DNA of 62,151 nucleotides, the filler included, from Nemertoderma westbladi (taxonomy: Eukaryota > Animalia > Xenacoelomorpha): the NCBI GenBank assembly GCA_032718475.1. It is 3 parts of 3 records of this genome, joined end to end, with 100 filler letters (N's around TTAATTAATTAA, not from the genome) between each part and the next. Parts side by side here need not be neighbours in the genome. Positions count along the whole stretch, not along the records: positions 1 to 29,128 come from JAUCBJ010008554.1; 2 more parts are not named here. The stretch is one strand, 5' to 3'. Every line of letters begins with the position of its first letter. Positions within the stretch are counted from its first letter, which is position 1. Shown here piece after piece: positions 1 through 49,245 of the stretch. The position numbers were made by a program, and so were the translations under genes. The notes below the pieces were generated by a model. It was not told where the DNA came from. It worked only from the letters and a program-made list of their open reading frames with translations, and ran no database searches.

Positions 1-2728
1 ACGCTCGCTAACCTAAATATAAACTCCTTATAATATGGATAAACTCATATATAGCAGATATGACGGAGTTGATAGAAGATGGTCTTGGTATCGGGGAGCG
101 ATATACTCTACTTTTACAAGCGTTTGTTAATAGCTTAATACGCGGCGACGTTAGTCCAACTGCTGCGGAGGACGATGGTCGTTATATCGAACCGCCAATG
201 TCCCAAGAGCAGCTCGCGCGAGTTGGACTATAGAAAATTCGCTGCTCGATATACGCAGCTTAATGGTACGTATATGGGCTTCTTAACTACTGATCATCCT
301 ATCGATTTACACAATACGGACTATGTCGACTATATATCCTGCCCAGCGGAGTCGGAACCCTAAACTGAAATTCGAATGCGAAAATTCTATTCGAAATCGG
401 CTCGAAAGAAAAGACATTAAAGAAACAAATAAACGCGGTAACTCCAACATATATTTGGAATTCTTGATAGAAGCATTGTAACAACAAATAAATATCATCC
501 GCGTTTCCCCTACCAGACGTACGTTTTTGGGTATTATTACGGTAAAGGCCCTAGATCCAGCCAATAAACGGAAAGACATAAACATCCACGGAAACGTTGT
601 GTTAAACACAGTTGTGCTCGTTATATTTACTTGAGTTTCGAGCGAAACTTGTTTGACGCATCACCTATGCTCACTCGGCTCGAACGATCCTGGAGTAAAC
701 CTACGATCAGAGTCCCGGAATACTCGGTCAAACCTCCTCATTCCTTAGTTGGACCTCAGACCTGCGATCTTGGTGGTGTCGCGGATCCTCGCGGACTGTA
801 TTCACTGTTCAAAGATCTAGTGCTACCCTAACAATTAATCGGTAACACTCCGACAGTGATTTCTAGCTAGCCGCCCATCTTACCTAGCCGGATTGTGACG
901 CGGACACCTAATATCACTATCCAACTGTATGGTCGTCCACGTTTAACGCGATACGACCCCTCATCAAGGTGAAGGAGAGCGTTGTACGAAACGAGTTAAA
1001 CGCTATTTTATAAAGATCAAAAAGGAAACCTGCGTTTGTTCAGATAAACGTAAGTTATAACAGTGAGTCCAATCAGTAAACGAATTGGCCTTATCTCAAT
1101 TCGATTGGGAAATCCAGAATCTCTAAGAAGTTGTCGAACTTGGACGATCCTATTCTCTGCGAGAGTTTTTGGATGAACGTATCCAGCTACGAGCGGAGGA
1201 AAATCAGCTCGAGGAGAAGCATATCGAAACGGCAGATACCTCGACCACAATCCTACACCTTCTGATGCAATCATATTGCACCCTTCACCCAGGAGTTATG
1301 GCCCTCCTAGTAAAGTGGCTCCCCCCAAAGAGAAAAGACTCTTGCTAGCCTCAAAAAACTGCGTAAACGCCGTCTGCGTAAGAAAGACTAACTGTTTAGA
1401 GTATCTTTATGTTTTAGAAACTGTGATTTTTATATTTTATAGACTGAAAATCCCATTTTCTGGGAGCGGTGTAAAAGCCTTTGCTGAATTGCCCCGTTAT
1501 TTTTATTATCTTTTACATTAAAATACTCTGTAGTTGATTTAATAAGTGTAAGAGACCGTATTATTGCTGTATCTGTGTTTTTAGAGGATCTAAGACCTAT
1601 TTCCTCCGTATGTGTACTGTGAAAGGCATATTTTATGATTCTATGGCAATTCGTGACGCAAAAGGGTGATAGCTACTCTTGAACAGTAGTTACTATGACT
1701 ACGGTTAACAGCTGACATTCATACGTGTTGATTTCCTTTGTTCTACGGCGTCTCTCAGCTCAGTCAGCCAATGAGAGCGTTTTTGTGGCTCCTTGTACAG
1801 AGAATTTCCGAGAAATGACGCAATGCCTATGTGCAGTGTTTACATTCAGTCTTGAGCCAAAGAAAGAACGGCTTGGAAGTATTTTTGTGCTGTACTGCTT
1901 TTTAGTCGTACACTAGTAGGTTTAATTATAAAGGGCATATATCCTTTAACTGTAAATATCTCACTGCTGCAATTTAACATACCTGATGACTGCTGACTGA
2001 TCATACATGCTGACTGCTGAAACATTGCAAACTCGTAACAATCAGTGTTCAGTTGTTGTTTTATACTGCTATTTGCGGTCAGTTCTTCATAATATGGTTG
2101 ATGAATTATTATATTTGGAATAACGATAAACAACCCCGAAACCCAATGTTCTTGATATACCGAAGGTAAGAGAGAAGGGTTACAGATAAACGATTGTGAC
2201 TTATGTTAAAGTGGTTTGAAGTGAATCTAATGTTATTTGATAGACCCTACATGAGTCAGCCTGTGTTCCTTTTATATGTGACTAAAATCAGTGAAGATTG
2301 GCAGATTAGTGTGCAGTATTGTGCAGCATTGTGTATGAGTGAGTCTGTTAAAGAAGCAATTCCTAAAGAATGCGCCATATATGTGAATTATAATTAAGCC
2401 ATATCGTTGTGAGTAGTTTAAGTCATAACTCTGTTTATATAGATAAAGCGCCACGTCCTAAAGGAACTGTTAATATTACCGAAGGTGAATAATATTGTCA
2501 GAGATTATATAATACTGTCAGTCGAATAATACATTAGGCTTACATAGCAATAAAAATTAAACCGTCGAACCCAATCTCCCGGGAATATCCAGCGGGTGAA
2601 TGGTCGCGCACGGATTGGTTTCGACTAGTGTAGTGAATCAAATACTTGTCATAGACTAAAAAGCGATTTATTATCTAGAAGACATTCTAATTTGGCGGGT
2701 TAAACTGCCAAAGGTCTGAAAGCGCGAA
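1..2728. mobile_element. Diverged, decayed Polinton/virus-like segment (paralogue of 4872-6127 and 10673-12420)
   Basis: 1235-1495 is similar to ~5260-5525 (ccttctgatgcaat...ctcaaaaaactgcgtaaacgccgt); 2100-2728 is similar to 11810-12420. The ORFs are broken and no domain is recognisable. Confidence 0.6.
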
Positions 2729-4871
2729 CACTGACATCTTCTCCGCTCCTAGAGGCAGATCGGCGGTCAAATCGTGAATTTCTTTCGAATAATGTAGATC
2801 AACTATGCAATAATAACCAGTGTCCCCACTCGCGTCTACTGTAGCTAGGTCTATGGGGGTAGTTACGAGTTTAATATTAGCGTAGGGAAGTTTCTGGCTC
2901 AGGGCGCAGCCGTAAAGGTTATTCGCATCGATGGGAATTAGATATTTCTCGGGGAGACTGGAGTCATAGTCGGGTTTATCGGGAATATTTGCATCTACGG
3001 AATGTGTATTCAAGAAAACTAGACCACCCCTAATATTTGTTTCAAAGTCCGAGTAGATGGAAGCGTCTGATAGTAATTGAATTTCTGATTGCGTGAATTT
3101 CAGCGCCGCGTCGTAAGTTAATCCGGGGGCAGTGAAGTACATTACGGGCTCGAGTCCATAATTAGTAAGACAGAGGGATCGGAACTGCTCGAAAGTATCA
3201 GCCAATAGGGTAACGTCTAGAACCAAATAGCCAATCATATAGTCGAAGATTGTTGCGCAGTTTAATTCATCCCAAGTAGTAAGCGCGCGCTAGTAGTAGG
3301 GTCTTGGGCGGCTCTGCGACAGTTAGACCCAACTGACACCCATTGGGTGTCATATGACACCCAATGGGTGTCAGTTGGGTCTAACTGTCGCAGAGCCGCC
3401 CAAGACCCTACTACTCGCGCTGATAGTTTTCTGCGCTACATTGTTCCAATTTGAGATCATTATAGAAGCTTTCTATTGGGGGGAGTGTAGTTTCGTGTAG
3501 GTTTGAAATATTTTGAATGTAGGAATATGGGAATACGCCCTTGTTTTTTATTGTGTTATCGCTAATGTTGGGATAGAGTTGGGTCATTTGAGCTAGTGTA
3601 TGGGGTATGGCTGTTGCTAGGTTACTGTTATTTTTAGTGAGATAACTACTAAGATTATCTAGGCTGGCAGTCATAAACTGATAGGAATCTAGAAAATTAA
3701 TGGAGATACTTTCTTTAGCGTTGGCTGTTGGTGTACTCGGATCGATTGGAAAGCTAACTTTAAGGTGAATATAAGTTTCGGTGTTTTTTGGTATTACAGT
3801 CATTTTCCAGTGTGTTCTAGAACTATCGGTCATTCCTTCTTTTAGTAGTAAATGCATATCGAATTTCCTCAAGTTATGAAATATAATATAAAAATTATTC
3901 CGTTTTAGGGAAAGTTTCCTGTTGCAGCTGACGCAAGCAAGCCCCTCGATACTCCCCGCTATAATGATCGTGATCGCGGACTTTGGTGCTGAGATTGTCA
4001 TTGAGGTTTAAATTATGAGAATCGGGGGTTAAATTACAGTTGCAGACGTAGCATTGTGTAGCGTTATTAAAGTCAGTTTGTTGGCTAGTAGTGAGTTGCA
4101 TGGGGGCGTGCGTGTTTGTACTAGAAATGGACCAATCGTATAACTCCCTACAATGACTTTCCATAGCGGTTAGAAAGTCGCGCATTACGTGGTTACTGCC
4201 ATCGTCGCGGAAAATTTGAACATCTGTTTTAGGAGGGTTAATTAATTTCTGATTTGGTACTGTATAAAAGGCTGCCGCGCTAGCTATATGTTTCTGTGGG
4301 AGTATTGTTTGTAGGTTCTAGAATAGTTTCAATGTCGGCGTATATACAGAAAGGAGGGGATAGAGTCTTATCGTATCGGTCAAATTTAACCAAGAGATTT
4401 TCGGGCATATACTCGAGTTGGCGTTTACCCGTATAGCAGCGCTCTCGATGTTCTCCCAATGATTTGTCAGTGTAAAAGGCTCTGAGACAGCGTTCGCAGT
4501 GCGTCTTGTTGCCGGTAGAAGTAGCTTTAGTATTTATTAATCTATCTATGTTAGTAATAGCTACGTAGTGGGCGGGGTTTTTGCTTGTGGCTTCGATAAA
4601 TAATAAGTTTAGTACAGTTTTACCGGAACAGTGCGCGCTATCTGGTTGACTTAGAATGGAGAGTTCTTCCGTATTACTCCAATAAAGAAGGTTTATACAG
4701 TATATAGGGTTTGCTTTCAGAAACTGGGGAATACCAGTTACTCTGTCCACTGGGAAACTTAAATTGGAAAAATCAAACATGTTTAGGAAAGGAGTAAACG
4801 TTGAAATTCTTTTGATATTATTTTGTTTTCTATCAATTTTCTTATAATTTGCAGCGGCCAATACTGCGTAT
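2729..4871 (-). pseudogene. Protein-primed family B DNA polymerase (pPolB) of Polinton/Maverick/adintovirus type, truncated at both ends and frameshifted
   Basis: ORFs 4280-4861, 3895-4185, 3411-4001 and 2687-3238 join into one reading: C2H2-like CERCL..HRERC, YADIET, CYVC..VRDHDHYSGEYRG..C..CN (endonuclease VII-like), IIFHNLRKFD, FLDSYQFM, KGVFPYSY, DVTLLAD, IRGG, DANNLYG (motif A). Single-base frameshifts near 4295 and 3945; insertion at 3292-3415; motifs B and C are absent. Confidence 0.92.
3292..3415. mobile_element. 124-bp perfectly palindromic mini-element with Polinton-type AGTAGT termini and 6-bp TSD
   Basis: Starts AGTAGTAGGGTCTTGG, ends CCAAGACCCTACTACT, centre TGTCAT|ATGACA. Flanked by CGCGCT (3286-3291 and 3416-3421). 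Removing it plus one TSD restores the PolB frame (NYQRALTTWDELNC...). Confidence 0.9.
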
Positions 4872-4992
4872 CAATTGGTCAAGGTAAACTCATTCAGAAA
4901 ACCTTACAATGTTTCAAGAATAGAAAAGGACGTAATACCTCCCTATAATCTCGATGGATTTATTAAAACTCGATTAGTCCATTGGAATTTAT

Positions 4993-5433
4993 ATGTATTG
5001 TTCAAGGAATAAAGAATATGGTGATTTGTTCATAAACTCACATCCTGAGTTACAAGAAGTTCATAGACAACCATGTGAATATAAAGCCAGAGAACGCGAA
5101 TTAGAGAAAACAATCAAACCAAGGAAATTTCTCACTACACACGGTCAACCTACCGCTGTCGTACAAACGACCCATCAAGGACCGGTAAGAGCTGCCATCC
5201 TGAAACGAGCTCTAAAGGTTGTTCGCCCTCGTTCCACCGATGTTGATATCGATCAACCAGGTACCTCGACCGGCGGATACACCGACCGTAATCCAAAACC
5301 TTCTGATGCAATCGTATTGCACCCTTCCCCCAGGAGTTATAGCCCTCCTAGTAAAGTGGCTCGCCCCAAAGAGAAAAATACTCTTACTAGTCTAAAAAAA
5401 CTTCGTAAACGCCGTTCACGAAAGAAGGACTGA
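4993..5433 (+). CDS. Unknown Polinton/virus-associated protein (probably a C-terminal fragment) with K/R-rich tail
   Basis: 146-aa ORF ending SLKKLRKRRSRKKD; near-identical copy at 10794-11234 and a diverged frameshifted copy ending at ~1392. Confidence 0.45.
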   Translation: MYCSRNKEYGDLFINSHPELQEVHRQPCEYKARERELEKTIKPRKFLTTHGQPTAVVQTTHQGPVRAAILKRALKVVRPRSTDVDIDQPGTSTGGYTDRNPKPSDAIVLHPSPRSYSPPSKVARPKEKNTLTSLKKLRKRRSRKKD

Positions 5434-6253
5434 TAGTTTAGAGTATTTTTGTATTTTAGAAACTGTGATTTTTTATATTTTATAGACTTGAATCCCACTT
5501 TCTGGGAGCGGTGTAAAAGCTTTTGCGGACATAACAAGTCATTTTTACGCAATGCGCAGAATACTCTAAAATAGCCCTAAAATTGTTCAACTACGCGTCG
5601 GAAAGAAATTAGAACCAAGATGACGAAATCTGTCAGCTGATTCTTTGTGTACATGGAGATTTATTTGTTCAAGCTTATTTGAGCCAATCAGAGCAATCTT
5701 CCCAGTTATGCCAGCAGAGACCTACCTAAGAAAACTAGCGCATGCGCATTTAGGTATCGTTTTTCTGAGAATTAGATTCCTCTCAGAATTCTGTACTAAG
5801 TACGGTCTTTTCAGACTTTAGCCCAAGAACATCTGATGGCTGGAGTTATAAGGACGTAAATCTATTAACTGAATCACTGCACCACGAACAATTCATGCAA
5901 TTCAAATCATACGCATCATTCATGCGCATTTAATGACTGAACACATACTGACTGTTCACCGCACTGTTTTACTGCTGTTTTTTTATATTGTGTTAATTGT
6001 TGTTTATATTAATGGATGTTATATTTGGAGAATACCGATAAATAATCGTAAACCCCTCAATCTTCTTGATTACTGAGGTAAGCGGAGAAAGAGTTTACCG
6101 TTAGCAACTGCGACTTAAATTATAGTGCCTCAGTGAGTCATAGTCTATGCCTCAGTGAGTCATAGTCTATGCCTCAGTGAGGCATAGTCTGTGTCAAGTC
6201 TTAAATGAGAGTCTTACAAATTCGAACGTCAACGAACAAATTCGAAGGTTACT

Positions 6254-6345
6254 GTTCCACCTTGGTGTAGTGGTTGCGTAGAATTCACATCTCTCGTATG
6301 TCATGGGTTCGACCCCTGCATGAACCAGGGCAGTTTTCGTTCGGT
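6254..6345 (+). mobile_element. 5' fragment (tRNA head) of the SINE found at 20291-20576
   Basis: TTCCACCTTGGTGTAGTGGTTGC...GGGTTCGACCCC...CCAGGGCAGTTTTCGTT matches 20297-20385; A and B boxes present. Confidence 0.75.
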
Positions 6346-6429
6346 CAGCAATAAGCCTAACGTTGCAAAATGCAGTATTATTGCCTAGTAACCAATTCAT
6401 GGCTACCGTATGGTTTTCACTTTGAGACA

Positions 6430-7080
6430 TTTCGTCCTCTAGCGGCAGACTGGGGAACTTCATACTACTCTGTGACTCTGCAAAAGATATAGCCTATGCC
6501 GTAGTAGATGCCGTTTGGGGGGTCAAAATTAAGTAATAATATATCTAAATAAGTCTCAAACATCTTGCCTCATGGCTCGCCCCTTAGAACTCTTAAGCAA
6601 TATAACTTCATAGTTTTGCGGATTGTAAATAACAAAGCTAGAGAAGATGTTAATTTTCAAATAATACACCCTCTAGCGGCAGACAGGGGAACTTCAGACT
6701 ACTCTATGTCTCCGCAAAATATATAGCCTATGCCGTAGTAGATGCCGATTGGGGGGTCAAATTAAGTAATAATATATCTAAATAAGCCTCAAACATCTTG
6801 CCTCATGGCTCGCCCCTTAGAACCCTTAAGCAATATAACTTCATAGTTTTGCGGATTGTAAATAACAAAGCTAGAGAAGATGTTAATTTTTAAATAATAC
6901 GCCCTCTAGCGGTAGACAGGGGAACTTCATACTACTCTATGGCTCCGCAAAAGATATGGCCTAATGCCGTAGTAGATGCCTACCGAGTTTAAACCCATTC
7001 GGAATGAAAATAGCAAAGTTAGAGAAGATGTTAATTTCAGATCATATGCCCTCTAGCGGCAGACTATGGAACTGCAGACG
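6430..7080. repeat. ~233-bp tandem repeat (2 full plus partial copies)
   Basis: Unit starting CCTCTAGCGGCAGAC recurs at ~6436, 6670, 6902 and 7049. Confidence 0.9.
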
Positions 7081-7439
7081 GCTGGATATAGGTAAGAGTA
7101 ATTAGTAATCAGAGCTGTCACGGGGTGGGGGGGGGGGGGGTGGGGCGCTTGGATACAACTATTATTAATAAGCTGTTGCTTGGTTAAAGCTAATTGGGGG
7201 TCAAAGGTCAAAGGTCAACGATAAAGCTGTCTTGATATAGATAAGAGTAATTAGTTACCAGTAAGGGAGCTGTATACCCTATGGCTAAGTATAACGAGAT
7301 GAAAGTCCATGAGGTCATATAGAAACCAATATATAAAACTAATTATTGGTAAATCTAAAATAAAGTACAATTAATTAATTTAAAATTAAATATAAATAAA
7401 TAAGTATTAATGAATAAAAGAGCTGCGGTGTCACTTATG

Positions 7440-7762
7440 ACACCCTCTTGAGCCGGCTCTGCGACAGTTAGACAACACTGATGACCCATTGTGTGTCAGG
7501 GCGCTAATCAGTCTGATTAATTAGGATAATCAATTAAACCCTAATTAGGAGTCATATGACACCTGTTAGGGTTTAATTGTACTAATTAATTGATGACACC
7601 TGTCAATTAGGGTCTAATTAGCCTAATTGGGAGGTGTCACCCAGACAGTCTGGCGCCAATGACACCCAATGACACCCATAGGGTGATAATTGGGTGTCAT
7701 ATGACACCCAATGGGTGTCAGTTGGGTCTATCTGTCGCAGAGCCGCCCAAGACCCTACTACT
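7440..7762. mobile_element. Polinton-type terminus with internal fold-back symmetry
   Basis: Ends ...CCAAGACCCTACTACT followed by CGCGCT and PolB sequence. 7455-7475 is inverted relative to ~7725-7746; multiple TGACACC/GGTGTCA motifs. Confidence 0.85.
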
Positions 7763-10672
7763 CGCGCTGATAGTTTTCTGCGCTACATTGTTCCAATTTG
7801 AGATCATTATAGAAGCTTTCTATTGGGGGGAGTGTAGTTTCGTGTAGGTTTGAAATATTTTGAATGTAGGAATATGGGAATACGCCCTTGTTTTTTATTG
7901 TGTTATCGCTAATGTTGGGATAGAGTTGGGTCAATTGAGCTACCCGGTTGAAAATTCATAGTACATTTCCTAAGATTTGCAAGTTCCTTGCTATCAGTTT
8001 ATTACACTTGTCAAAATATGTTTAGTAACAAAAATTTGGTAAACTTAATAGAGCATGTAAGTTATTTCTTTAGTTTTAATAAATATTGCAAGTGTTACTC
8101 TGCTCTCTTATATTTTGCAGGTACTTGCCATGTTCCTGCAAAGTATTGCATATATGCAGATATAGGCTTACTGCAGTACTGTTAGTTGTTGGGCAAGTTT
8201 GTACTTGCCTGAGTCTAGGCATAACAATGTCACTGTATTAATTTAACAGTTCAGTAGTTTCAGTGGGGCTTGCCAGTTGTCAGGTCTGAATGCAGCTATC
8301 TCAGGTAGCCCATGACCTCCACGAAAGAAATTAAACGTTCATATTTGTTTCTTTTTTCCTGCAAAGCTGAACATCTATGAAATATTGTTTAATATAGGTA
8401 AAAAATGCTGACGTTGTTAGTAATATATCAAATTGGGACATTGACATTAGGTAATTTAACATCCTAACTGGATCGAAAATGAATATGAACCAAAACAAAC
8501 GAATATTTAGCATTCCTATTACATTATTCAGTTTTGCGTTCATTTTTGGTGATTTAATGAGTGATTCCTCTGATTACCAAAGCTGCTATGTTAGAAAGAA
8601 ATAAGAAAAGAAAATAATGATGAAAGAAAACCGAAAATTTTTGTTTTGTTTAAACCAAATACCATTAAATTTTGTTGAGATAAAGCAGATATTTGGATGT
8701 TGGAATGCTCAAGCTATTAATATCACAAGATAAATTTTTTTAATCGCAAAACATTATTTTTTAATTTTACAGTTTTCTTATGCTTCAATAGCTTTTGTGA
8801 ATTATTTACATTTTTGAATAGATATAAAATGTCAAATGACCTATTACAAGGTCTTAAAGTTAATAAATTGTCCTAGATTTATCAATATGAATATTCTATT
8901 TTGTCTGAAAATAAAATAAATTATATAAATCTAACAAATCGAATTCGAATATGTGGGTCATCACCAAAATATATCAAGGATACTCTCATATCACTATGGA
9001 TTAAATATTTTCATATATACTCTGCTGTTTCCTATTCTAAATGTATAGGGTATTGTAGGTGTAGGCCTGTAGAATGTAGGGTGTAGGGATTGGATAACGT
9101 ACCCCCCACCCCCCTCTCATCTACACAGAACATGCACACACATGCACAGTGCAGTGATTGGTCAGTCTAACTTTTGAGTTTTATATTCTAATTTGCATTG
9201 ATAAATTTATAATTACTTTCTATATACATGACATACTGTTTACAATTACCAAGTGCCTTATTAAAACTTGACATTCATAGAAAGATTTGGCTTATTAAGT
9301 GATATACTTTACATATCTTGGCAAGTACTTGTTAAGAAGATAGCAAGTAGACTTTACAAGTACTTAGTATGTGTAACAGGGATTTTCAACAGGGTAGTGT
9401 ATGGGGTATGGCTGTTGCTAGGTTACTGTTATTTTTAGTGAGATAACTACTAAGATTATCTAGGCTGGCAGTCATAAACTGATAGGAATCTAGAAAATTA
9501 ATGGAGATACTTTCTTTAGCGTTGGCTGTTGGTGTACTCGGATCGATTGGAAAGCTAACTTTAAGGTGAATATAAGTTTCGGTGTTTTTTGGTATTACAG
9601 TCATTTTCCAGTGTGTTCTAGAACTATCGGTCATTCCTTCTTTTAGTAGTAAATGCATATCGAATTTCCTCAAGTTATGAAATATAATATAAAAATTATT
9701 CCGTTTTAGGGAAAGTTTCCTGTTGCAGCTGACGCAAGCAAGCCCCTCGATACTCCCCGCTATAATGATCGTGATCGCGGACTTTGGTGCTGAGATTGTC
9801 ATTGAGGTTTAAATTATGAGAATCGGGGGTTAAATTACAGTTGCAGACGTAGCATTGTGTAGCGTTATTAAAGTCAGTTTGTTGGCTAGTAGTGAGTTGC
9901 ATGGGGGCGTGCGTGTTTGTACTAGAAATGGACCAATCATATAACTCCCTACAATGACTTTCCATAGCGGTTAGAAAGTCGCGCATTACGTGGTTACTGC
10001 CATCGTCGCGGAAAATTTGAACATCTGTTTTAGGAGGGTTAATTAATTTCTGATTTGGTACTGTATAAAAGGCTGCCGCGCTAGCTATATGTTTCTGTGG
10101 GAGTATTGTTTGTAGGTTCTAGAATAGTTTCAATGTCGGCGTATATACAGAAAGGAGGGGATAGAGTCTTATCGTATCGGTCAAATTTAACCAAGAGATT
10201 TTCGGGCATATACTCGAGTTGGCGTTTACCCGTATAGCAGCGCTCTCGATGTTCTCCCAATGATTTGTCAGTGTAAAAGGCTCTGAGACAGCGTTCGCAG
10301 TGCGTCTTGTTGCCAGTAGAAGTAGCTTTAGTATTTATTAATCTATCTATGTTAGTAATAGCTACGTAGTGGGCGGGGTTTTTGCTTGTGGCTTCGATAA
10401 ATAATAAGTTTAGTACAGTTTTACCGGAACAGTGCGCGCTATCTGGTTGACTTAGAATGGAGAGTTCTTCCGTATTACTCCAATAAAGAAGGTTTATACA
10501 GTATATAGGGTTTGCTTTCAGAAACTGGGGAATACCAGTTACTCTGTCCACTGGGAAACTTAAATTGGAAAAATCAAACATGTTTAGGAAAGGAGTAAAC
10601 GTTGAAATTCTTTTGATATTATTTTGTTTTCTATCAATTTTCTTATAATTTGCAGCGGCCAATACTGCGTAT
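7763..10672 (-). pseudogene. Second copy of the pPolB fragment, interrupted by a DNA transposon
   Basis: ORFs 10081-10662, 9696-9986 and 9386-9802 match copy 1; the sequence resumes at 7763-7942. Confidence 0.92.
7943..9394. mobile_element. Non-autonomous DNA transposon with CCC...GGG termini and 2-bp TA TSD (CMC/EnSpm-like)
   Basis: TIR CCCGGTTGAAAATTC / GGATTTTCAACAGGG; TA on both sides; the empty site GAGC-TA-GTGTATGG is visible in the duplicate at ~3590-3603. Confidence 0.88.
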
Positions 10673-10793
10673 CAATTGGTCAAGGTAAACTCATTCAGAA
10701 AACCTTACAATGTTTCAAGAATAGAAAAGGACGTAATACCTCCCTATAATCTCGATGGATTTATTAAAACTCGATTAGTCCATTGGAATTTAT

Positions 10794-11234
10794 ATGTATT
10801 GTTCAAGGAATAAAGAATATGGTGATTTGTTCATAAACTCACATCCTGAGTTACAAGAAGTTCATAGACAACCATGTGAATATAAAGCCAGAGAACGCGA
10901 ATTAGAGAGAACAATCAAACCAAGGAAATTTCTCACTACACACGGTCAACCTACCGCTGTCGTACAAACGACCCATCAAGGACCGGTAAGAGCTGCCATC
11001 CTGAAACGAGCTCTAAAGGTTGTTCGCCCTCGTTCCACCGATGTTGATATCGATCAACCAGGTACCTCGACCGGCGGATACACCGACCGTAATCCAAAAC
11101 CTTCTGATGCAATCGTATTGCACCCTTCCCCCAGGAGTTATAGCCCTCCTAGTAAAGTGGCTCGCCCCAAAGAGAAAAATACTCTTACTAGTCTAAAAAA
11201 ACTTCGTAAACGCCGTTCACGAAAGAAGGACTGA
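10794..11234 (+). CDS. Second copy of the K/R-tailed ORF
   Basis: Identical to 4993-5433 except one K>R change. Confidence 0.45.
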   Translation: MYCSRNKEYGDLFINSHPELQEVHRQPCEYKARERELERTIKPRKFLTTHGQPTAVVQTTHQGPVRAAILKRALKVVRPRSTDVDIDQPGTSTGGYTDRNPKPSDAIVLHPSPRSYSPPSKVARPKEKNTLTSLKKLRKRRSRKKD

Positions 11235-14188
11235 TAGTTTAGAGTATTTTTGTATTTTAGAAACTGTGATTTTTTATATTTTATAGACTTGAATCCCATT
11301 TTCTGGGAGCGGTGTAAAAGCTTTTGCGGACATAACAAGTCATTTTTACGCAATGCGCAGAATACTCTAAAATAGCCCTAAAATTGTTCAACTACGCGTC
11401 GGAAAGAAATTAGAACCAAGATGACGAAATCTGTCAGCTGATTCTTTGTGTACATGGAGATTTCTTTGTTCAAGCTTATTTGAGCCAATCAGAGCAATCT
11501 TCCCAGTTATGCCAGCAGAGACCTACCTAAGAAAACTAGCGCATGCGCATTTAGGTATCGTTTTTCTGAGAATTAGATTCCTCTCAGAATTCTGTACTAA
11601 GTACGGTCTTTTCAGACTTTAGCCCAAGAACATCTGATGGCTGGAGTTATAAGGACGTAAATCTATTAACTGAATCACTGCACCACGAACAATTCATGCA
11701 ATTCAAATCATACGCATCATTCATGCGCATTTAATGACTGAACACATACTGACTGTTCACCGCACTGTTTTACTGCTGTTTTTTTATATTGTGTTAATTG
11801 TTGTTTATATTAATGGATGTTATATTTGGAGAATACCGATAAATAATCGTAAACCCCTCAATCTTCTTGATTACTGAGGTAAGCGGAGAAAGAGTTTACC
11901 GTTAGCAACTGCGACTTAAATTATAGTGGTTTTTGTGTGAATTAAATGCTATTTCATAATCCCTACGTGTCAGTTGCAATCCTCCTTATATATGATCAAA
12001 ATCAGTGACGGTTGGCAAATTAGTGTGAAGTCGTGTGAAGGTTAATAAAGCATCTCCTAAAGAATGCGCTATTTACGAAGCTCTATGGCCATCTAGTTGT
12101 GATTAGTATAAGTCATAACTCTGTTTTATACTTAAAGCGCCACGTCCTAAAGGAACTGTTAATATTTCCCCGAAAGTAAATATAGTTGTCAGAGATTATA
12201 TAGTAGCGATCAATCGAATAATACAAAGTAGCTTACACCGCAATACTTCCTCCGGAACCCGAATCCAGTCTCCCACACCGTGGGTCATACGCCGCGCACG
12301 GACTGGCTTCGGCAGATGTAAATTCAGTGCACCAGGTAATTGGTACGGGCAAAGTCGATTCATAATCAAAAGGACAATTAAAATTGGCAGGTTAAACTGC
12401 TAAAGGTCTGAAAGCGCGAAAACTGGCCAATCTCTCTACCAGCCGTTCCCCATTCCCTCTACCAATCAATCTCTACCAGCATTCCCAGCACCTGGCTGCC
12501 TTACACACACATCCTACCCATCGATGTACCAGCCAACTTGCATGTTGGCCAATAAATTAGCAGTATTTAATGATAATCAATTTTTTATGCCGTTTTAATT
12601 ACTTTAGATCAATTAAAGACACATTTATTAAAGCAAATCACTTGAACTAATTAAAAACTATAATATAATGGGGTATGTGGATTACATCTGTATAATTTTT
12701 AAGTATAATTATTGAAGTCTTATACTGTAAAATAATTAATTTCCTTTAACAGGCAGGTTGAAAGTGCTGTTTTTACCATAATCAATTTAATTAACTAATT
12801 AACTGCTATTATCTTAGCTTCTCGAAGGCCACACGAAAATTCAACTTGGAAAATTTATAAACTTTTGCCAAACAACATGTGTACCAAGTTTGGATAGATT
12901 TCATTAAAGATTGGCCGAGCTATTAACGTTTAAAATTGAACACTGCAAAAAAAGCGTCAGAACGACAGGTTGATTAATGGTACCACTACGCTAAGGCTCA
13001 CTCACTTCGTGGCTCGCCCCACAGACACACCGATTGAATTAGTGGTACCTGTACTGCTGTATGCTAAGCTCGCTTACTTTCGTCGCTCGCCCCACACGAA
13101 GGTCGAAAAGATTTTATTCTAATTAAATGAGATAGTTTCTTATGAATGATGAGATGAATGAAATGAGATAGTTTTCTAAAAGCTAAAAACAAACTGCGGC
13201 ATTCTGATTCACATTCAAATGTTTACGTATCACCTGATTTGACCCGACTTCAGTCTGAACAGGCATTCCTTCGACGTAAATCAAATCGCGATTCGAACAA
13301 TGTTGGGCGAAGTTCAGGAGGCGAAACATCAAACCCGATTGCCACCCCCACTGAAAGTTCGGACTCGGAAAACCACTAAAGGGAGAAAATTCCTGTAATT
13401 CAAACCCGCTTGTACAGTGTTGTACTTTTAATGCTCAGTCATTGGGTAACAAACTATTGGATCTTGAACTGTTTTTATCCGATTCAAGATGTGACTTAAT
13501 CGGTATTACCGAATCGTGGTTAACTGATGATATTACCGACGAGATGTTAAGTGGCGATGGGAAATTTAATGTGTATAGAAATGACCGTACTACTAGAGGT
13601 GGCGGTGTGGTCTTACTTGTTAAAAAAGAAATAATTGCTATAAAGGTTCCCCTAAATAACATGAAGTATGGTAGCGATATTGAAGTTGTTGCAGTAGATT
13701 TACTAAGTAACACTCCATCTCGTGTAATATGTGCATATAGATCGCCATCTTCTAGTATAGATACTGATACCCGTTTTTGTAAATATTTATCAGATTTATG
13801 TGAGGTACAGTACCCAGTCGCACTCTGTGGTGATTTTAATCTCAGACTATTTGACTGGCAAACAAATTCACACCCAGACAGTCCATTGTATAGTGTGTGA
13901 AGAGAATGGACATGGTTCTAGAATATAGAGTAAGAGAGGGTGACTAAAATTTTAAGAGTTAATTTACGCATAGCTAACCCTCAGGCATTTTATTAATAAT
14001 TAATTATATAATAATTTATAATAAAAGACCACACTCTTATTATTTTATTACACAATGCGTAGCTAGTATATTTTGAAATTATAAAAAAAAAATTTGTGAA
14101 AATATTGATACCTCTGACTCTGCGTGTCTAATATCTGTTATTTTAATCTACGAATTACGAACTTGATATCTGATTTGTCCAATTAATC

Positions 14189-20290: not shown

Positions 20291-20576
20291 CATAGGTTCC
20301 ACCTTGGTGTAGTGGTTGCATTGAATTCACATCTCCCGTAGGTCGTGGGTTCGATCCTCACATGGGCCAGGGCAGTTTTCGTTTCGGCACGAATGCTTTA
20401 AAGGAACCAGCCAGGGCGCATCTCTGCCTTGCATCCTTAAGTGGTAGCTAAATGAGTACTGGAGTTTCCTCTGAGGAGTAAAGTTCTGGGGGGACCGCAC
20501 TGGAAATAAGTCGTCAGACTTTGTGCGTAATCCCTGGCCTAGCGGCCGAAGAAAATTTACTTTACTTTTTACTTTT
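20291..20576 (+). mobile_element. tRNA-derived SINE inserted in the CR1 ORF2
   Basis: A box TGGTGTAGTGG, B box GGTTCGATCC, central GCCTTGCATCCTT..GGTAGCTAAATGAGTAC, (TTTAC)n tail; the CR1 frame NNYIK|RLEFLNLQPL rejoins across it. Confidence 0.88.
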
Positions 20577-29128: not shown

Positions 29129-29228
29129 NNNNNNNNNNNNNNNNNNNNNNNNNNNNNNNNNNNNNNNNNNNNTTAATTAATTAANNNNNNNNNNNNNNNN
29201 NNNNNNNNNNNNNNNNNNNNNNNNNNNN
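29129..29228. other. Assembly spacer (N44-TTAATTAATTAA-N44)
   Basis: 100 bp with a six-frame stop linker; artificial. Confidence 0.97.
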
Positions 29229-29882
29229 TCAGCAGACCATCATAGTAGTCTACACTAGAGAAGCCCCTAGCTAAATAGCCTGGGTGTAGAAGAGTGAATA
29301 TAGTGAATATGAGTACGATCACAACAAGTGAGAGAGGTAGCCTGAATTGGCGATGGAACTGCAGTTGAAGAGAGTAGTGGTTAAAAGGAACTCAGGATAT
29401 TATTATCTTTTGAAAAAAGAGCCCCCGCAACAAAAAATTTACAACATAACATGAAAAGCACCACTAAGATCGTTTCTACTTGTAGTACAGTTTGTTGGCT
29501 TGTTCAGGTATATTTAATACAGTATCAAATTTTGGTAATTTTTTGTATCTGATAAAAATTATCTTAGCCAATTTGCATTACCAACCTCTACCTGATACAA
29601 CTACCCCCTTGTACTTGCTGAACTCTGACCTGTGATATCACGTATGGCATAAATAAATATACAAATTCAAAGATTAGCAGATATCTGAGACGAATGTTAA
29701 TAAATTAACTAAATAATGTTGATAAATTTAATTCGTACCATATGAATTATATTTATTATTTTAATTACTTTATATTGAGATAAATGGTGAAACAATAATT
29801 TCAACTGGTATTTACATACTAAGCACAAACGTTAGTGAAGCGAGTTTCTTCACCATAGGCTAATTTCGTATTTATTTGAATT

Positions 29883-31430
29883 ATGAATTCAGTTAACAAA
29901 TATGAAGTCCCCGAAGAGGAGAGTGAGAGTGTCAGTAGCCCCCCAACAGACAACCTTCTACACGCGCAGGTAAGAGTAAGATCAACTCTACAACTGGAAT
30001 CCAGCCACCGGAATCTCTTCCTGGCTGTTACGGTTGCTACCTTGGGATCGTTTGCCTTCGGCTACACCATGGGATTTTCATCGCCGGCTCTACCTTTAAT
30101 GGTTAACGATGGAACCATCGATAAGAATAATGAATCTATAGTTGGAAGTATTGTTACGATTGGATGTTTGGTTGGGGCTTTAATAACTGGAGAGTTAGCC
30201 GAGAGGTTCGGTAGGAAGACAATGCTTATGACATTGACTGTTCCGTATGCGGTGGGGTGGGTTATGGTATGCAGCGCTACTAGAGAACTGTATTACCTAC
30301 TTCTGATTGGTCGGTTATTTACAGGTCTTGGTGTTGGAATGTCCTCATTGGTTGTACCGATGTATGTTTCCGAAATTTCTGTACCACAATATAGAGGATT
30401 GTTGGGGTCAATGTTCCAGCTGACCATCACACTGGGAATTCTTTTAGTTTATGCACTGGGTTGTTTCATAACTAATTGGCGAATATTAGCTCTAATTGGA
30501 ATGACATTTCCGGTGCTTCTGTTATCCATGATTTTTATGACAGAAACTCCTCAGTGGTACTTAAAATTTGACAGATTTGATGACGCTATTGAAGCCTTGG
30601 TTTGGTTGAGACGTAGTAATAGAGAAGATGTTGGTGAAGAAATCAAAGAAATAATCGATAATTTAGAAAAAGGACAAAATGAAAGTTTTAGTCTCAGCGA
30701 TTTTAAGAAACCTCTTGTGTACAAACCGATAATATTAAGTTGTCTAATCTTAGCATTCCAACAATTATCTGGTAATGGCGCCGTAGTAACATATTCTGTG
30801 GACATATTCAAGAGCGCTGGTTTTACCGACAGCGCTTTAGCTAGTGTATACTTAGCAATATTACAGGTGGTTGCGACAATTGTTATGGGTGTTTTGTTGG
30901 ATAAGACTGGTAGAAAGGTTCTGTTGATAGTGTCGGGGATTGGTATGACAATAACAGCTGTGGGCTTCGGTGCATATTTCGCCATTAAAAACTCCCAAAG
31001 CCATAACCACCCACCTACTGGAGAGTTGTCCACTGTTGCTCCCCCTCCCACATACCACTGGTTGGCCTTATCATCTATGCTCCTCTACATAACGTTTTTC
31101 AACCTCGGCTGGGGTGGAACACCATGGATTATAGCTTCCGAAATTTTACCCCAGAAGATAAAGCGCTTCGCAAGCTCCTTGGCCACAGCCTCTATGTGGC
31201 TATCATTGTTTATTGTCGCCCTAGAATTTGATAACATGAACGACAGCCTCGGAGAAGATGTCACATTCTGGATATTTGCTGGTGTAACAGTTTTGGGTGT
31301 TTTATTTGTGGCGTGTTTTCTGCCGGAGACCAAAGGTAAATCCCTGGAAGAGATTGAACTGTATTTTGAAGGTGGGGGAGCGAGGGAAACAGTTCGGGCG
31401 CCCTGGGTGGAAGCGTATCAAGGAGACTAA
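29883..31430 (+). CDS. MFS sugar porter, Tret1/GLUT8 (SLC2A8)-like, intronless
   Basis: 515 aa with ~12 hydrophobic segments; GFSSPA, ERFGRK, GRLFTG, YVSEI..RGLLG, ETPQW, QQLSG, DKTGRK, GWG.PW..SEI.P, PETKGKSLEEIE. Confidence 0.95.
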   Translation: MNSVNKYEVPEEESESVSSPPTDNLLHAQVRVRSTLQLESSHRNLFLAVTVATLGSFAFGYTMGFSSPALPLMVNDGTIDKNNESIVGSIVTIGCLVGALITGELAERFGRKTMLMTLTVPYAVGWVMVCSATRELYYLLLIGRLFTGLGVGMSSLVVPMYVSEISVPQYRGLLGSMFQLTITLGILLVYALGCFITNWRILALIGMTFPVLLLSMIFMTETPQWYLKFDRFDDAIEALVWLRRSNREDVGEEIKEIIDNLEKGQNESFSLSDFKKPLVYKPIILSCLILAFQQLSGNGAVVTYSVDIFKSAGFTDSALASVYLAILQVVATIVMGVLLDKTGRKVLLIVSGIGMTITAVGFGAYFAIKNSQSHNHPPTGELSTVAPPPTYHWLALSSMLLYITFFNLGWGGTPWIIASEILPQKIKRFASSLATASMWLSLFIVALEFDNMNDSLGEDVTFWIFAGVTVLGVLFVACFLPETKGKSLEEIELYFEGGGARETVRAPWVEAYQGD

Positions 31431-39765: not shown

Positions 39766-40860
39766 TTAAAATTTCCCGTTTTCATCATCGGGTTCATATA
39801 TAGTACTACCGGTAGGTTTGCCAATATTGCACTGCGAATTGCTGAAGGCTACGACACTGTTGGGTTTGCTGCAACTGGCACCAACAACGGTTGCCGACTT
39901 CTTCTCGGGACTGTAGGCCCTCGACCGTAGACTGGTGACCCTCGACCGTGGTTGACTCGGCACCCCAGACTTCCTCTTACTTTCTCGACAATTCTCAAGC
40001 ATTGACTTCCGCTGCTCTGAAGCCAGCCCCGCACAAATTAAGCACAACACGGTGTCCTTCTGCTTGGAATAAAAAGGTTGATCGGCGAGACACTTTCCGC
40101 ACGTGCTGCATACAAAACACGTCTCGTGATAGTAGTTAATCGTGTGTTCATCCCGGCGCCAGGGCAGTGCACCACTATTGATGGTCGCGTGGCACTTGAT
40201 GCATTTACGGGCGTATGTTTTGTGATGACATTGGAGGCATATTGGATAATTGTTATGTACGTAGTACTGCTTGCCTGAAAGTACATTCGAACAGTCATGA
40301 CATCGGAAACAGCTCTGGTGGTAACCCTCGTCTTTAAACACGACCCCCTCCCGTACCGGTTTCTTGCAGTGTTTACAAGGAACCTCGTGTTTGTTATGTT
40401 GCTCTCGACAAGAATGACACACGTTACGCCCCTTAACAATGTTGAACTTTTGAGTGTCGATAGGTTTTTTGCAGCTGGCACAAAGGAAACACGCCGCATG
40501 GTAATGATCCTCCATAAATATCATTATGTTGCCATCAAGAATGAGTTCGAAGCAGGTTGGACATGTTTTCGCGAAATTTTCAGCGTAACAACGTCTGCAA
40601 CTGAGCCCGCTAATACAATTACTAATCAGACTCTTAACGACATGCAAATTGCCCAACTTACTACTGCCTATTGGCAAAGTTGACCCCGCAGTGTCAAAGA
40701 ACTTGGTGTCACACAGACTTTCCTGACAGTAAACACAGTTAAAACATTCCTCGTGAAAGTATATACCACGGTAATTGACAGCTCGTAATTCCTTTAGCGG
40801 ATTCTGACATTTTTCGCATTTACCTAGCGCACTATTGTTACGAATATTTTGTTCTTCCAT
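39766..40860 (-). CDS. Four-LIM-domain protein (FHL/paxillin-like arrangement) nested in BTBD9 intron 1
   Basis: Four C-x2-C...H-x2-CF-x-C-x2-C...C-x2-C repeats and a Ser/Arg-rich tail; probable 75-nt in-frame intron at 40610-40684. Confidence 0.88.
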   Translation of the reverse strand: MEEQNIRNNSALGKCEKCQNPLKELRAVNYRGIYFHEECFNCVYCQESLCDTKFFDTAGSTLPIGSSKLGNLHVVKSLISNCISGLSCRRCYAENFAKTCPTCFELILDGNIMIFMEDHYHAACFLCASCKKPIDTQKFNIVKGRNVCHSCREQHNKHEVPCKHCKKPVREGVVFKDEGYHQSCFRCHDCSNVLSGKQYYVHNNYPICLQCHHKTYARKCIKCHATINSGALPWRRDEHTINYYHETCFVCSTCGKCLADQPFYSKQKDTVLCLICAGLASEQRKSMLENCRESKRKSGVPSQPRSRVTSLRSRAYSPEKKSATVVGASCSKPNSVVAFSNSQCNIGKPTGSTIYEPDDENGKF

Positions 40861-42059
40861 GTTAATATTCAGGAAGCTGTTTGTATAATAATTTACATAA
40901 TAAATAGAAAAATATGTTCCTAAGTTTCTATGGTACCGCGATAACCTGTGTGTTATTTAATCCTCCATTTATTTATAGCAGAAATATAGTTTTTTTTAAA
41001 TTTTGAATCATAAAATGTACTATACAATGATAGCTTTTGAACACAAAATTTCAAAACAATATAGTAATTAGTATCTATTTATGTTATTGATTATACAGAA
41101 AGAAAGTACTGCAATTCACCACAGTAGGATCTCTGATAGTTATAATTATTCGTCAGAAGGTAGTGCTATATCTGGAATGTAAATTAACAGTCAATTCAGA
41201 ACAGACTCGTTCAATTTATCAGATAATAATACATTAAATAAACAAGAAATAACCCTTTGTCACTAATTTGAGTTAACCGAAAATCAGATATTATGTTCAC
41301 GAGTGTTGAGTTTTACACGTACCATGGCATTTTGACCTACCAAATCAAAATGCAATACACTCGGATAGAGTTGTGCAATATGTTTCGATATAGTAATAAT
41401 CGTACTCAATTTAAATTTGTGATAAAAAAAATTGCGTATTTTCGAATACTTTACTCTTATCGGGTTACCATTACTTTACTAATAAGGAATAAGATAAGCC
41501 CAATTTAAATGTTTGTGATTAATTTCGGTCTACTCCATTCTAAATCTCGAAAGTCGAAACTGTTAAACAGTGACACATTACTTAGTTAGCTAATTAGATA
41601 AATATGGAGAAAATATTAGTTACTTTTTCCCTAAAATAATAGGATTGCATTAAATTTACTTTTGTAGAGGCGAAAAAAAAACAAGTAGAATTTCTTAAAT
41701 ATTATTACATGGAAGAGCATCGAAGTAGAAATGTTTGTACGTAAATTGAGCAAAATCCATGCAGACACTCAAAAGTTATTGAAACTTTAGTGTCTGCAAG
41801 GCGAACACCAAAACGGTTACGTTTTAGTTACATAATAAATAATCGAGAACATTAAATTACTTAACAAGGCAACATCAGTAGTTGAAGAATTCAATGATTC
41901 GAATAGCAGTAACTATCTGACCATGGGGGGAAGCAAATATATAGGCTATCTGTCTACAAAAAAACACTCGGAAATATAGGGAAAAAAACACCCCTTACAA
42001 CTCAAAGATTGTTGTGGTTAAAATTCGTTTAAAGCAGCACAACACTAGACCAAGCAGCA

Positions 42060-47502: not shown

Positions 47503-47973
47503 GTGATTGTAATACGGCAATAAAATAATTAAAGAAAGTAACACCCCCATTGAATGCACCTCAATCTGTCGTCAAGGGAAATTAATAGGAGCCTACTACA
47601 TAATTATTGCATTGTTAGAAGGAGTTGAAGCTCTTCCCTAGACATAACAGGAAATTCCCTCCCTACAGTATTTTGTTTCAATGGCATACTAAAAAAATGC
47701 AGGCATGCTCTATCATCTAAACTGTATGAAAGGTTGTTGCTCGTTGTGCATTTGAGCACCTACAGTATCCTTCCCTGCAATTATAAAGGCAGATAGGCCT
47801 GTGTATAGAGTACTGTCAGACTACTGCTGGACTGTGGACTGTAGCCCAGTAGCCAGTCGCCTTGACTGCAGGACTGTAGCCTAATAATCCTGCCGTCCTG
47901 GTCCTGTAATCGTATTCATATAGACTTCAGACGCCATCCCAACCACCAAACCGCTGAACTGTATTACAGTATT

Positions 47974-49245
47974 ATGAACCCCGACGTAAAACGACTGTTG
48001 TTAGGAGTTGTTGTTCTCTTTCTTACAGACGTTCTTTGGGTGGCATCATCGGAAGTCTCTAGAATGATTTACCACGACCGCGCTTACAACAAACCCTTCC
48101 TTACAACCTACGCCAAAACATCCATGTTCGTCATATATCTAACGGGGTTTGCATTTTATAGACCTTGGCAACGGCAATGCTCCTGTTCATATTTGCGATT
48201 TAAAAGACCTAGATTTCCACATATTAAACCAAGTAATATTGAAACATATGGTGAAACTGAGAGCCTGATTACTGGTACCGAGTATACTAATGTAATTAAC
48301 GACAGTACCGGTACGAGTAACATTACCTCCGAAGATAGTGTATCAGAGAGTGGTTTATCGATAATCCGATCGGGTGAGGCTACCGGTAATCATTCTAAAC
48401 TACCAATCAGGAGCCATCTAAGAATCTCTCTGATATTTTGCTTGCCCTGGTTTTTAGGCTCATTAACATACGGTTTGGCGTTGGGTCAGAGCGAGGCTGC
48501 TATCGTTAACATACTCTCGTCTTCCTCGGGTCTATTCACTCTGTTATTGGCCGCAGTATTTCCTAGTTCCCATGGCGACAGGTTTACAGCGACCAAGTTT
48601 CTCGCCGTTTGTGTCTCTATAGCCGGTATTGTTATCGTTGTACTTTCCACAGTGGACAATAACAGTAATCCATTATCGGTGGACATCGGTTGCGTGTGGG
48701 CGCTTATTAGCGCTATATTCTACGCCATTTATATTGTGTCGCTAAAGCGTCAAGTTAACAATGAAGACAGAATAGATATTCCATTATTTTTCGGTTTTGT
48801 TGGTCTTTTAAATATTTTTCTTTTATGGCCATTTTTCTTTGTTTTTCACTACACCGGTTTTGAAGTTTTCCAGTTGCCACCTGATTTAGATACCTGGATG
48901 TTTATTGTAGCCAATGGCCTCATTGGAACTGTATTTTCTGAGTTTCTATGGTTATGGGGATGTTTATTAACGAGCTCATTGGCTGCTACTATATCACTTA
49001 CTCTCACTATACCTCTCACCGTGCTCTGGGATATGTTTATGCGTCACGATTATTTTTCGGTGGAATTCCTTTGCGGAGCGGTTCCCTGTTTTCTCTCATT
49101 TATCACAGTTTGCGTTTTGCAACATTATAATGACTGGGATCCGGTAGCCATGGCAATGCGACGTTTATTGGAACTGCTGTCGAAATGTTGTGCGAAAAAT
49201 ATAATAAGCAGACGGCGCTCGCGGAACCTCTTACACCCACCGTGA
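47974..49245 (+). CDS. SLC35F5: Solute carrier family 35 member F5-like (DMT/EamA superfamily), intronless
   Basis: DVLWVASSE, YNKPFLTTYAKTSMF, VNILSSSSGLFTL, GDRFT..K, DIPLFFGFVG, NGLIGTVFSEFLWLWGCLLTSSL, YNDWDPV. Confidence 0.93.
   Translation: MNPDVKRLLLGVVVLFLTDVLWVASSEVSRMIYHDRAYNKPFLTTYAKTSMFVIYLTGFAFYRPWQRQCSCSYLRFKRPRFPHIKPSNIETYGETESLITGTEYTNVINDSTGTSNITSEDSVSESGLSIIRSGEATGNHSKLPIRSHLRISLIFCLPWFLGSLTYGLALGQSEAAIVNILSSSSGLFTLLLAAVFPSSHGDRFTATKFLAVCVSIAGIVIVVLSTVDNNSNPLSVDIGCVWALISAIFYAIYIVSLKRQVNNEDRIDIPLFFGFVGLLNIFLLWPFFFVFHYTGFEVFQLPPDLDTWMFIVANGLIGTVFSEFLWLWGCLLTSSLAATISLTLTIPLTVLWDMFMRHDYFSVEFLCGAVPCFLSFITVCVLQHYNDWDPVAMAMRRLLELLSKCCAKNIISRRRSRNLLHPP

What the first reader, a model, noticed from the sequence alone, without database searches (positions are those of the whole stretch)
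3286..3421. 124-bp perfect hairpin 'mini-Polinton' with AGTAGT ends and a 6-bp TSD, sitting inside a pPolB gene
Seen: a flawless 62+62-bp palindrome bounded by AGTAGTAG...CTACTACT and duplicated CGCGCT; excision restores the PolB frame. Known: (AGT)n termini and 6-bp TSDs are hallmarks of Polinton/Maverick integrase-mediated insertion, and those elements are normally 15-20 kb. Inference: this is either a MITE-sized non-autonomous Polinton (replication origins and integration ends only) or the scar left when a Polinton recombined between the palindromic TGTCATATGACA sites of its two TIRs, analogous to a solo LTR. It also shows a Polinton-type element inserted into a Polinton polymerase gene.
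Basis: partly seen in the sequence, partly recalled or inferred. Interest (0 to 1): 0.82.

Follow-up and report, generated by a model that had tools for sequence, protein, structure and literature searches.

The report
Collapsed Polinton end forms perfect hairpin
A perfect 124-base DNA hairpin with the ends and insertion scar typical of Polinton virus-like transposons interrupts a broken Polinton polymerase gene in an animal genome; it is a rare form rather than an abundant mini-transposon, and is likely what remained when a longer inserted element deleted itself between the 24-base palindromes inside its two ends.

Summary
In detail: 3292-3415 is a perfect palindrome with (AGT)n ends between two CGCGCT. 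Read contigs of two samples show the same site without the insert, so the 6-bp duplication is real.

Bases 3342-6127 recur at 7689-11928 (>99%), with the same right junction but a longer end that continues inward into a branched self-complementary 338 nt. That end holds one 24-bp palindrome at positions 51-74; deletion between two such cores predicts exactly 124 bp.

In reads the terminus occurs with many flanks and nearly always continues inward; summed depth drops 200- to 1,500-fold at bases unique to the fold-back. So this is not a high-copy MITE.

Best reading: in-place collapse scar of a longer Polinton-ended insertion (0.6). Rivals: hairpin integrated as such (0.2), assembly artefact (0.1). 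No listed contig spans the hairpin's left junction, and no gene-bearing parent was found.

New variant of known transposon decay; modest interest.

The parts
3286..3291 (+). Left copy of the 6-bp target-site duplication (CGCGCT)
   Evidence: insert-free site in read contigs
3292..3415 (.). Perfect 124-bp palindrome with (AGT)n...(ACT)n ends: 50 bp of terminus + 24-bp core + 50 bp of terminus
3342..3365 (.). 24-bp palindromic core; inferred deletion junction between the two ends of the parent
   Evidence: identical to 7689-7712; read depth falls away after 3365
3416..3421 (+). Right copy of the target-site duplication
2730..3285 (-). Downstream piece of the interrupted pPolB gene; homology ends near 2730
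3422..4870 (-). Upstream pieces of the interrupted pPolB gene, with frame changes near 3940 and 4300
4978..5433 (+). 151-codon open frame with a basic C-terminus, duplicated at 10779-11234; no family found
6126..6190 (+). Duplication breakpoint at 6127/6128 (2-bp microhomology) followed by three 22-bp tandem units
6128..7424 (.). Gene-less DNA next to the long end, with 233-bp tandem repeats; likely interior of the parent insertion (inferred)
7425..7762 (+). Long, uncollapsed right end of the same insertion; folds into a branched hairpin with the last 10 nt unpaired
   Evidence: -106.3 kcal/mol, z = -18.3, 0 of 100 shuffles; 73 of 74 terminal bases match the hairpin
7689..7712 (.). The 24-bp palindromic core in its native setting (positions 51-74 from the terminus)
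7763..11928 (+). Second copy of the 6-bp site and right flank (equals 3416-6127), interrupted by a 1,452-bp TA-flanked insert at 7943-9394
   Evidence: 2 differences in 254 bp and 5 in 2,534 bp

Best explanation
The hairpin is likely the collapse scar of a longer Polinton-ended element that inserted into one copy of a multi-copy pPolB gene, duplicating 6 bp, and then likely lost its whole interior in place. Each end of the parent carries a 24-bp perfect palindrome at positions 51-74 (shown for the right end, inferred for the left). A palindrome reads the same in both orientations, so the two cores of inverted ends are also direct repeats. Slippage, single-strand annealing or template switching between them would delete the interior and leave 50 + 24 + 50 = 124 bp, a perfect hairpin with the TSD untouched: a 'solo-TIR' counterpart of a solo LTR. 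A local tandem duplication (new junction at 6127/6128) preserved a copy of the uncollapsed right end with about 1.6 kb of adjoining DNA and the same flank; it happened before, or in the same repair event as, the collapse (inferred). Shown: palindrome, TSD, insert-free sister copies, duplicated junction, longer native end, rarity of the fold-back. Inferred: order of events, the repair pathway, and Polinton identity of the parent (about 0.85). No host function is proposed.
For: Same right junction twice, once folded back and once with a long end. The long end matches the hairpin for 73 of its first 74 bases and then diverges, exactly at the end of the core; the core is the only palindrome over 10 bp among 7 found in that end and predicts a 124-bp product. 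In reads the terminus begins at 3291-3292 beside unrelated flanks (loose-end agreement 0.51-0.6 in X1 and X3) and continues inward like the long end (6 contigs in X1, 2 in X3); summed depth goes from 18,278 / 12,557 / 60,195 at 3362-3365 to 12.4 / 13.3 / 309.5 at 3366-3368. Four contigs of X3 fit two places of a stretch that ends 15 bp past the axis, which is what centre-spanning contigs would do (my inference, they are not listed singly). Insert-free site in 3 of 4 runs, 2 samples. End motif and 6-bp TSD match Mavericks (PMC8097293 passages).
Against: No listed contig spans the hairpin's left junction in any of 4 runs, and X1, the same sample as X3, has 0 contigs fitting two places. The uncollapsed allele with both ends was not seen. 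No integrase, ATPase or capsid gene lies in the window (0 hits for 13 queries). The long end at 7425-7762 could also have been copied from another locus during repair of a break in a pre-existing hairpin; the window cannot tell the two apart. The four X3 contigs could be library fold-backs at the palindrome.
Confidence: 0.6

Rival explanations
1. The hairpin formed off the chromosome as a snap-back (defective) replication product of a Polinton, by fold-back at the same 24-bp core, and integrase inserted it as a 124-bp unit. The long end at 7425-7762 was later copied in from another family member when a break in the fragile hairpin was repaired, which also produced the duplication.
For: The product is the same 124 bp and keeps both complete termini and a clean TSD. 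X3 shows some depth (309.5) at fold-back-specific bases, which could be a few loci. An unchecked note of this scan (e1-7883901) describes palindromic Polinton-ended elements that integrated as units in another genome.
Against: Needs an ectopic template to explain a long end at the identical junction, where the scar model uses local sequence only. Fold-back bases are at most 0.5% of neighbouring depth and near background in X1 and X2, so such products are not accumulating.
Confidence: 0.2
2. Assembly or library artefact: a long insertion is really present and the assembler short-cut from one core to the other, or two haplotypes were placed in tandem.
For: A graph with words of 24 bases or fewer would make exactly this product. 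No listed contig spans the left junction or the right one. The two flank copies differ by only 7 bases in 2,788, as alleles might.
Against: The assembly runs unbroken through two 99.8% identical 2.5-kb copies of a multi-copy family, which short-word graphs would not resolve (inference: long reads). X3 has depth past the core and 4 contigs that fit two places. The junction at 6127/6128 is specific, with microhomology.
Confidence: 0.1
3. An abundant MITE-like family of 124-bp hairpins mobilised by Polinton proteins.
For: The terminus is multi-copy and sits beside many flanks.
Against: Those termini continue inward instead of folding back; summed depth drops about 1,500-, 950- and 200-fold at the fold-back-specific bases.
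Confidence: 0.04
4. The ends belong to the same family as the interrupted pPolB gene (self-insertion), or to a non-Polinton element with a 6-bp TSD.
For: Near-identical termini and pPolB are both deep in X1-X3 at similar levels, and both are missing or only diverged in X4.
Against: The pPolB-side sequence continues past 11928 collinear with an older relative (1230-2733; 69-85%) to a different, non-folding end near 12425. Among DNA transposon ends known to me, (AGT)2 plus a 6-bp TSD is the Maverick signature (comparison with other superfamilies recalled).
Confidence: 0.06

Closest known systems
Polintons/Mavericks of animals (PMC8097293 and PMC10748475, passages read)
   Same: 5'-(AGT)2//(ACT)2-3' end motif, 6-bp TSD, long structured ends; the interrupted gene is a pPolB whose relatives in viral contigs sit beside rve integrase (6 of 7 loci scanned) and A32 ATPase (6 of 7).
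   Different: 124 bp instead of 13-25 kb, no genes, zero spacer; parent with genes not found.
Polinton remnants at the C. elegans eri-6/7 locus (PMC11414722, passages read)
   Same: Polinton insertions decay in place and leave TIR-only remnants together with local duplications and inversions.
   Different: [quoted passage not shown]
Microhomology-mediated miniaturisation: Gnome, Elf and Goblin MITEs from Ozma in Aedes aegypti (PMC3814204, abstract read)
   Same: Internal deletion between short direct homologies leaves both ends and the TSD.
   Different: Homology there is 6-8 bp of interior sequence and the products amplified; here it is a 24-bp palindrome inside the ends themselves, which fixes one product size, and the product did not amplify.
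Palindromes in the TIRs of endogenous virophages and PLVs of Halocafeteria (10.64898/2026.07.28.741278, passages read) and of casposons (PMC4046053, passages read)
   Same: Palindromes inside TIRs near the TSD; elements nested in one another.
   Different: Reported there mostly for elements with non-pPolB replication genes, in protists or prokaryotes; no collapse product is described in the passages seen.
Solo LTRs; AAV double-D fused terminal repeat (both recalled, not read)
   Same: One fused end left after recombination between an element's two ends.
   Different: LTRs are direct repeats; inverted ends normally invert and do not delete, unless they hold a palindrome as here.

Membership tests
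Polinton/Maverick | 5'-(AGT)2//(ACT)2-3' or (AG)3//(CT)3 end motif | tested here: met
   terminus position confirmed by varied flanks at 3291-3292
Polinton/Maverick | 5-8-bp (usually 6-bp) target-site duplication | tested here: met
   insert-free site lacks 130 = 124 + 6 bases; range
Polinton/Maverick | TIRs of 100-1,500 bp | tested here: inconclusive
   62-bp arms in the hairpin; only one long end (at least 338 bp of structured sequence) is in the window, so the parent's TIR length cannot be measured
Polinton/Maverick | pPolB and rve integrase (plus ATPase, capsid) encoded between the TIRs; 13-25 kb | tested here: not met
   the hairpin has no genes; 13 integrase/ATPase/capsid queries give 0 hits in the window. 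It is at most a remnant, not a member in the full sense
Polinton/Maverick | An autonomous element in the genome with these same ends | not testable with these tools
   no whole genome held; pattern scans of viral and metagenome contigs found nothing relevant
MITE (non-autonomous miniature family) | Short, gene-less, TIR- and TSD-bounded | tested here: met
MITE (non-autonomous miniature family) | Many copies of the same short form at different sites | tested here: not met
   fold-back-specific depth is 0.07-0.5% of adjacent depth in 3 runs, with nothing laid in the fourth; contigs can drop such forms, so a few copies are not excluded
Penelope-like fold-back insertion | Hammerhead motif and a one-sided tail beyond the palindrome (features recalled and notes) | tested here: not met
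   both arms end at the TSD with no tail; Rfam scan of 1-14000 gave only 7 sub-threshold miRNA-hairpin matches and no ribozyme

The most novel reading that the evidence does not exclude
An animal Polinton family has ends that fold into a branched, parvovirus-like hairpin of about 330 nt, and a 24-bp palindrome in those ends programmes one stereotyped 124-bp snap-back genome, made only of the two origins and integrase sites, which the parent's polymerase and integrase can still copy and insert: the minimal Polinton replicon, and a ready substrate for testing the never-reconstituted Polinton integration model.
Probability: 0.15. Interest if true: 0.62.

Novelty: new variant of a known kind. Interest (0 to 1): 0.33.

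Why it matters
If the best reading holds, inverted-repeat elements whose ends contain a palindrome have a predictable deletion route that leaves a fixed-size hairpin scar, as LTR elements leave solo LTRs. Such scars could be counted to estimate Polinton turnover, and they would be missed by searches that need genes. The locus is unusual in keeping both the product and a copy of the precursor end side by side. The strongly folded native end is a lead on how this family's ends work. It remains a single, probably neutral event in a dead element, so the impact is limited unless more hairpins with their own TSDs turn up.

Tried and rejected
No whole genome is held, so copies could not be counted in the assembly.

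Exact-pattern scans: terminal 20-mer in metagenome contigs, 0 hits; core 18-mer and inner 19-mer in viral contigs, 0 hits each. A gapped terminal pattern gave 2 metagenome loci, both bacterial or prophage-like DNA with no other likeness to the window; rejected as chance.

28 viral loci with pPolB relatives share no nucleotide similarity with the end at 7425-7768. 2 of 28 begin with an (AGT)n-like end. The first 340 nt of 4 loci with recognisable ends fold weakly (z -3.9 to 0.2; 30 block shuffles each), so the branched hairpin is not general among these relatives.

Rfam hits over the hairpin are sub-threshold miRNA models that any long stem attracts. No tRNA in the window. The 151-aa frame has no Pfam family and no usable Atlas hit. 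tblastx of four non-pPolB segments against the 28 loci: 0 hits.

Run X4 has no cover over most of the pPolB and none at 97% over the hairpin; absence in contigs proves nothing.

Nine literature searches listed no title or abstract start on a Polinton fold-back scar; 'solo TIR' occurs 0 times in the 15 papers listed. Subscription papers, Repbase entries, Kapitonov and Jurka 2006 and all supplements were not seen, so absence from print is not shown. Double insertion at one site (PMC5932611 passages) does not fit: there is no TSD at the axis. PMC3014272, PMC12220804 and 10.1101/2025.02.07.637071 (passages) added only background on TSDs and nesting.

Full report
1. Observation. Bases 3292-3415 equal their own reverse complement with no mismatch, start with AGTAGTAG, and are flanked by CGCGCT on both sides. 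The next best perfect palindromes in the window have 12-bp arms. Folding as DNA gives z = -21.7 against 200 shuffles. The window is animal-type DNA with LINE reverse transcriptases and ordinary host genes; no whole genome is held.

2. The interrupted gene. The frame to the right carries Pfam DNA_pol_B_2. The frame to the left finds 198 longer proteins among 1,255 candidates, the best at 44-49% identity, with named hits from a coral, insects and a spider. In 7 of 7 intact relatives tested, the two flanking pieces align to adjacent residue ranges (for example 515-686 and 689-881 of P0007). Of 28 viral contigs with related polymerases I scanned 42 frames from 7: rve integrase in 6, A32 ATPase in 6, a double-jelly-roll capsid in 2, at E <= 1e-4, two integrase hits lying under Pfam's cut-off. 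So the target is a Polinton-type pPolB. This copy has further frame changes near 3940 and 4300 and its homology ends near 2730; it is a dead fragment. Whether its frame would be continuous without the insert is left open.

3. The TSD is real. Five public runs hold the region; four were laid on 2700-4300. The pPolB is a young multi-copy family: its long contigs have depths of about 1,100 (X1), 1,500-1,800 (X2) and 5,000-6,000 (X3), against about 15-35, 18-78 and 60-220 for diverged paralogue contigs. Depth is not a copy number, but the contrast is large. A 363-bp X2 contig at depth 1,542 crosses the site with 130 bases absent and 6 letters fitting either side; X1 and X3 show the same insert-free site as loose ends, and diverged paralogues cross it too. 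The insert is therefore 124 bp plus one duplicated hexamer.

4. Bases 3342-3595 recur at 7689-7942 (2 differences in 254) and 3594-6127 at 9395-11928 (5 in 2,534), with a 1,452-bp TA-flanked insert between the two parts. The second copy has the same right terminus, hexamer and flank. Read inward, it matches the hairpin for 73 of 74 bases and then continues into different, palindrome-rich sequence. Its terminal 338 nt fold into a branched hairpin (-106.3 kcal/mol, z = -18.3, 0 of 100 shuffles), whereas six other 338-nt windows nearby do not (z -2.4 to 0.9). Beyond 11928 the second copy stays collinear with an older relative at 1230-2733, so the derived junction is 6127/6128, which has 2 bp of microhomology.

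5. Mechanism. The long end holds seven perfect palindromes of 8 bp or more; the longest, 24 bp at positions 51-74, predicts a fold-back product of 124 bp, the observed size. Two inverted ends that each contain this core present it as a direct repeat, so deletion between the cores leaves 50 + 24 + 50 bp and both hexamers. This step is inferred; the arithmetic and the precursor end are shown.

6. Family or single event. I laid the four runs on 3262-3368, which ends three bases past the core, at 97% likeness. Termini begin at 3291-3292 next to unrelated flanks (agreement 0.51-0.6 in X1 and X3), so the end belongs to a mobile multi-copy family. After the core they continue as in the long end (6 contigs in X1, 2 in X3). 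Summed depth falls from 18,278, 12,557 and 60,195 at 3362-3365 to 12.4, 13.3 and 309.5 at 3366-3368; X4 laid nothing. The fold-back is thus rare, and the abundant-MITE reading fails. X3 has 4 contigs that fit two places, X1 and X2 none; I read these as centre-spanning at low copy, but they are not listed singly and could be library fold-backs. Against my reading: no listed piece spans the left junction in any run (167 pieces were not shown). A rare branch between two deep nodes is what such contigs drop, and these samples need not be the assembled individual, so the locus itself is unconfirmed by reads.

7. Rivals. Integration of a ready-made snap-back hairpin gives the same 124 bp, but needs an ectopic template to put a long end at the identical junction (0.2). 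An assembly short-cut is possible in principle, but the assembly resolves 99.8% identical repeats here (0.1). An abundant MITE is contradicted (0.04). Self-insertion or a non-Polinton parent cannot be excluded without a full element (0.06). No integrase, ATPase or capsid gene lies in the window (0 hits for 13 queries), and public contig scans found no carrier of these ends.

8. Comparison with what is known. The end motif and 6-bp TSD are the commonest Maverick signature (PMC8097293 passages; size ranges from PMC10748475 passages). TIR-only remnants with local rearrangements are known from C. elegans (PMC11414722 passages). Miniaturisation by microhomology is known for MITEs (PMC3814204 abstract). 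Palindromes in TIRs and nesting of such elements are reported for virophages and PLVs (10.64898/2026.07.28.741278 passages) and palindromic TIRs for casposons (PMC4046053 passages). The hairpin works like a solo LTR of an inverted-repeat element (analogy recalled). It is not a Polinton in the full sense, since it has no genes, and not a MITE family. Nine searches listed no report of this exact product; subscription papers, Repbase and supplements were not seen. Unchecked notes of this scan describe gene-less or reduced Polinton-ended elements, including giant palindromic ones, in other genomes; none concerns this place or this sequence.

9. Verdict. Real in the assembly, with a true TSD; most likely a one-off collapse scar whose precursor end survives 4.3 kb away. 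New variant of a known kind; interest 0.33. The bold case, a minimal snap-back Polinton replicon that is still integrated, has probability about 0.15 and would deserve about 0.62.

Noticed in passing
window 7425-7762: The native end folds into a branched hairpin of about 330 nt (z = -18.3) with an internal inverted, diverged copy of the terminus at 7446-7498, leaving the last 10 nt unpaired; four related viral contig ends checked do not fold this way.
   Followed up: partly
window 2689-2733 and 12384-12425: A 42-bp end, 93% conserved between two otherwise 69-85% alike segments (1230-2733 and 9395-12425). Summed depth over 2700-2753 is 260,000-420,000 in X1-X3 with varied flanks after 2730-2732, so it ends a very abundant repeat, and it abuts the pPolB at the point where homology stops.
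   Followed up: partly
window 3415 / 3291 (run X2): One contig at depth 24 joins a right terminus almost directly to a left terminus: a possible circle junction or end-to-end tandem of the parent family.
   Followed up: no
window 7943-9394: 1,452-bp AT-rich insert with imperfect TIRs of about 15 bp and a TA duplication, without a frame of 100 codons, present in only one of the two flank copies; likely a non-autonomous Tc1/mariner-like element.
   Followed up: partly
window 3292-3330 (runs X1-X4): Loose ends show other subfamilies that share the first bases of the terminus but differ further in; run X4 holds only such diverged ends and little of the pPolB family.
   Followed up: no
window 6254-6341 and 20296-20383: 88-bp repeat (87.5%) that lies at the end of a reverse-transcriptase frame in one place and next to the long end in the other; ARAGORN and Rfam call nothing.
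   Followed up: partly
window 29129-29228 and 56975-57074: Two 100-bp N spacers with a 12-bp linker: the window likely joins three separate pieces.
   Followed up: no
window 29880-31430, 39766-40956, 47866-49245, 59007-60884: Long uninterrupted frames: sugar transporter, four-LIM protein, EamA transporter and a GC-rich flavin amine oxidase, the last much richer in G+C than its surroundings.
   Followed up: no
L022 1553-1653, 11572-11751, 15740-15763: A Polinton-like viral contig with an (AGT)n-like start carries dispersed 24-28-bp perfect palindromes of one family, also present in L023.
   Followed up: no
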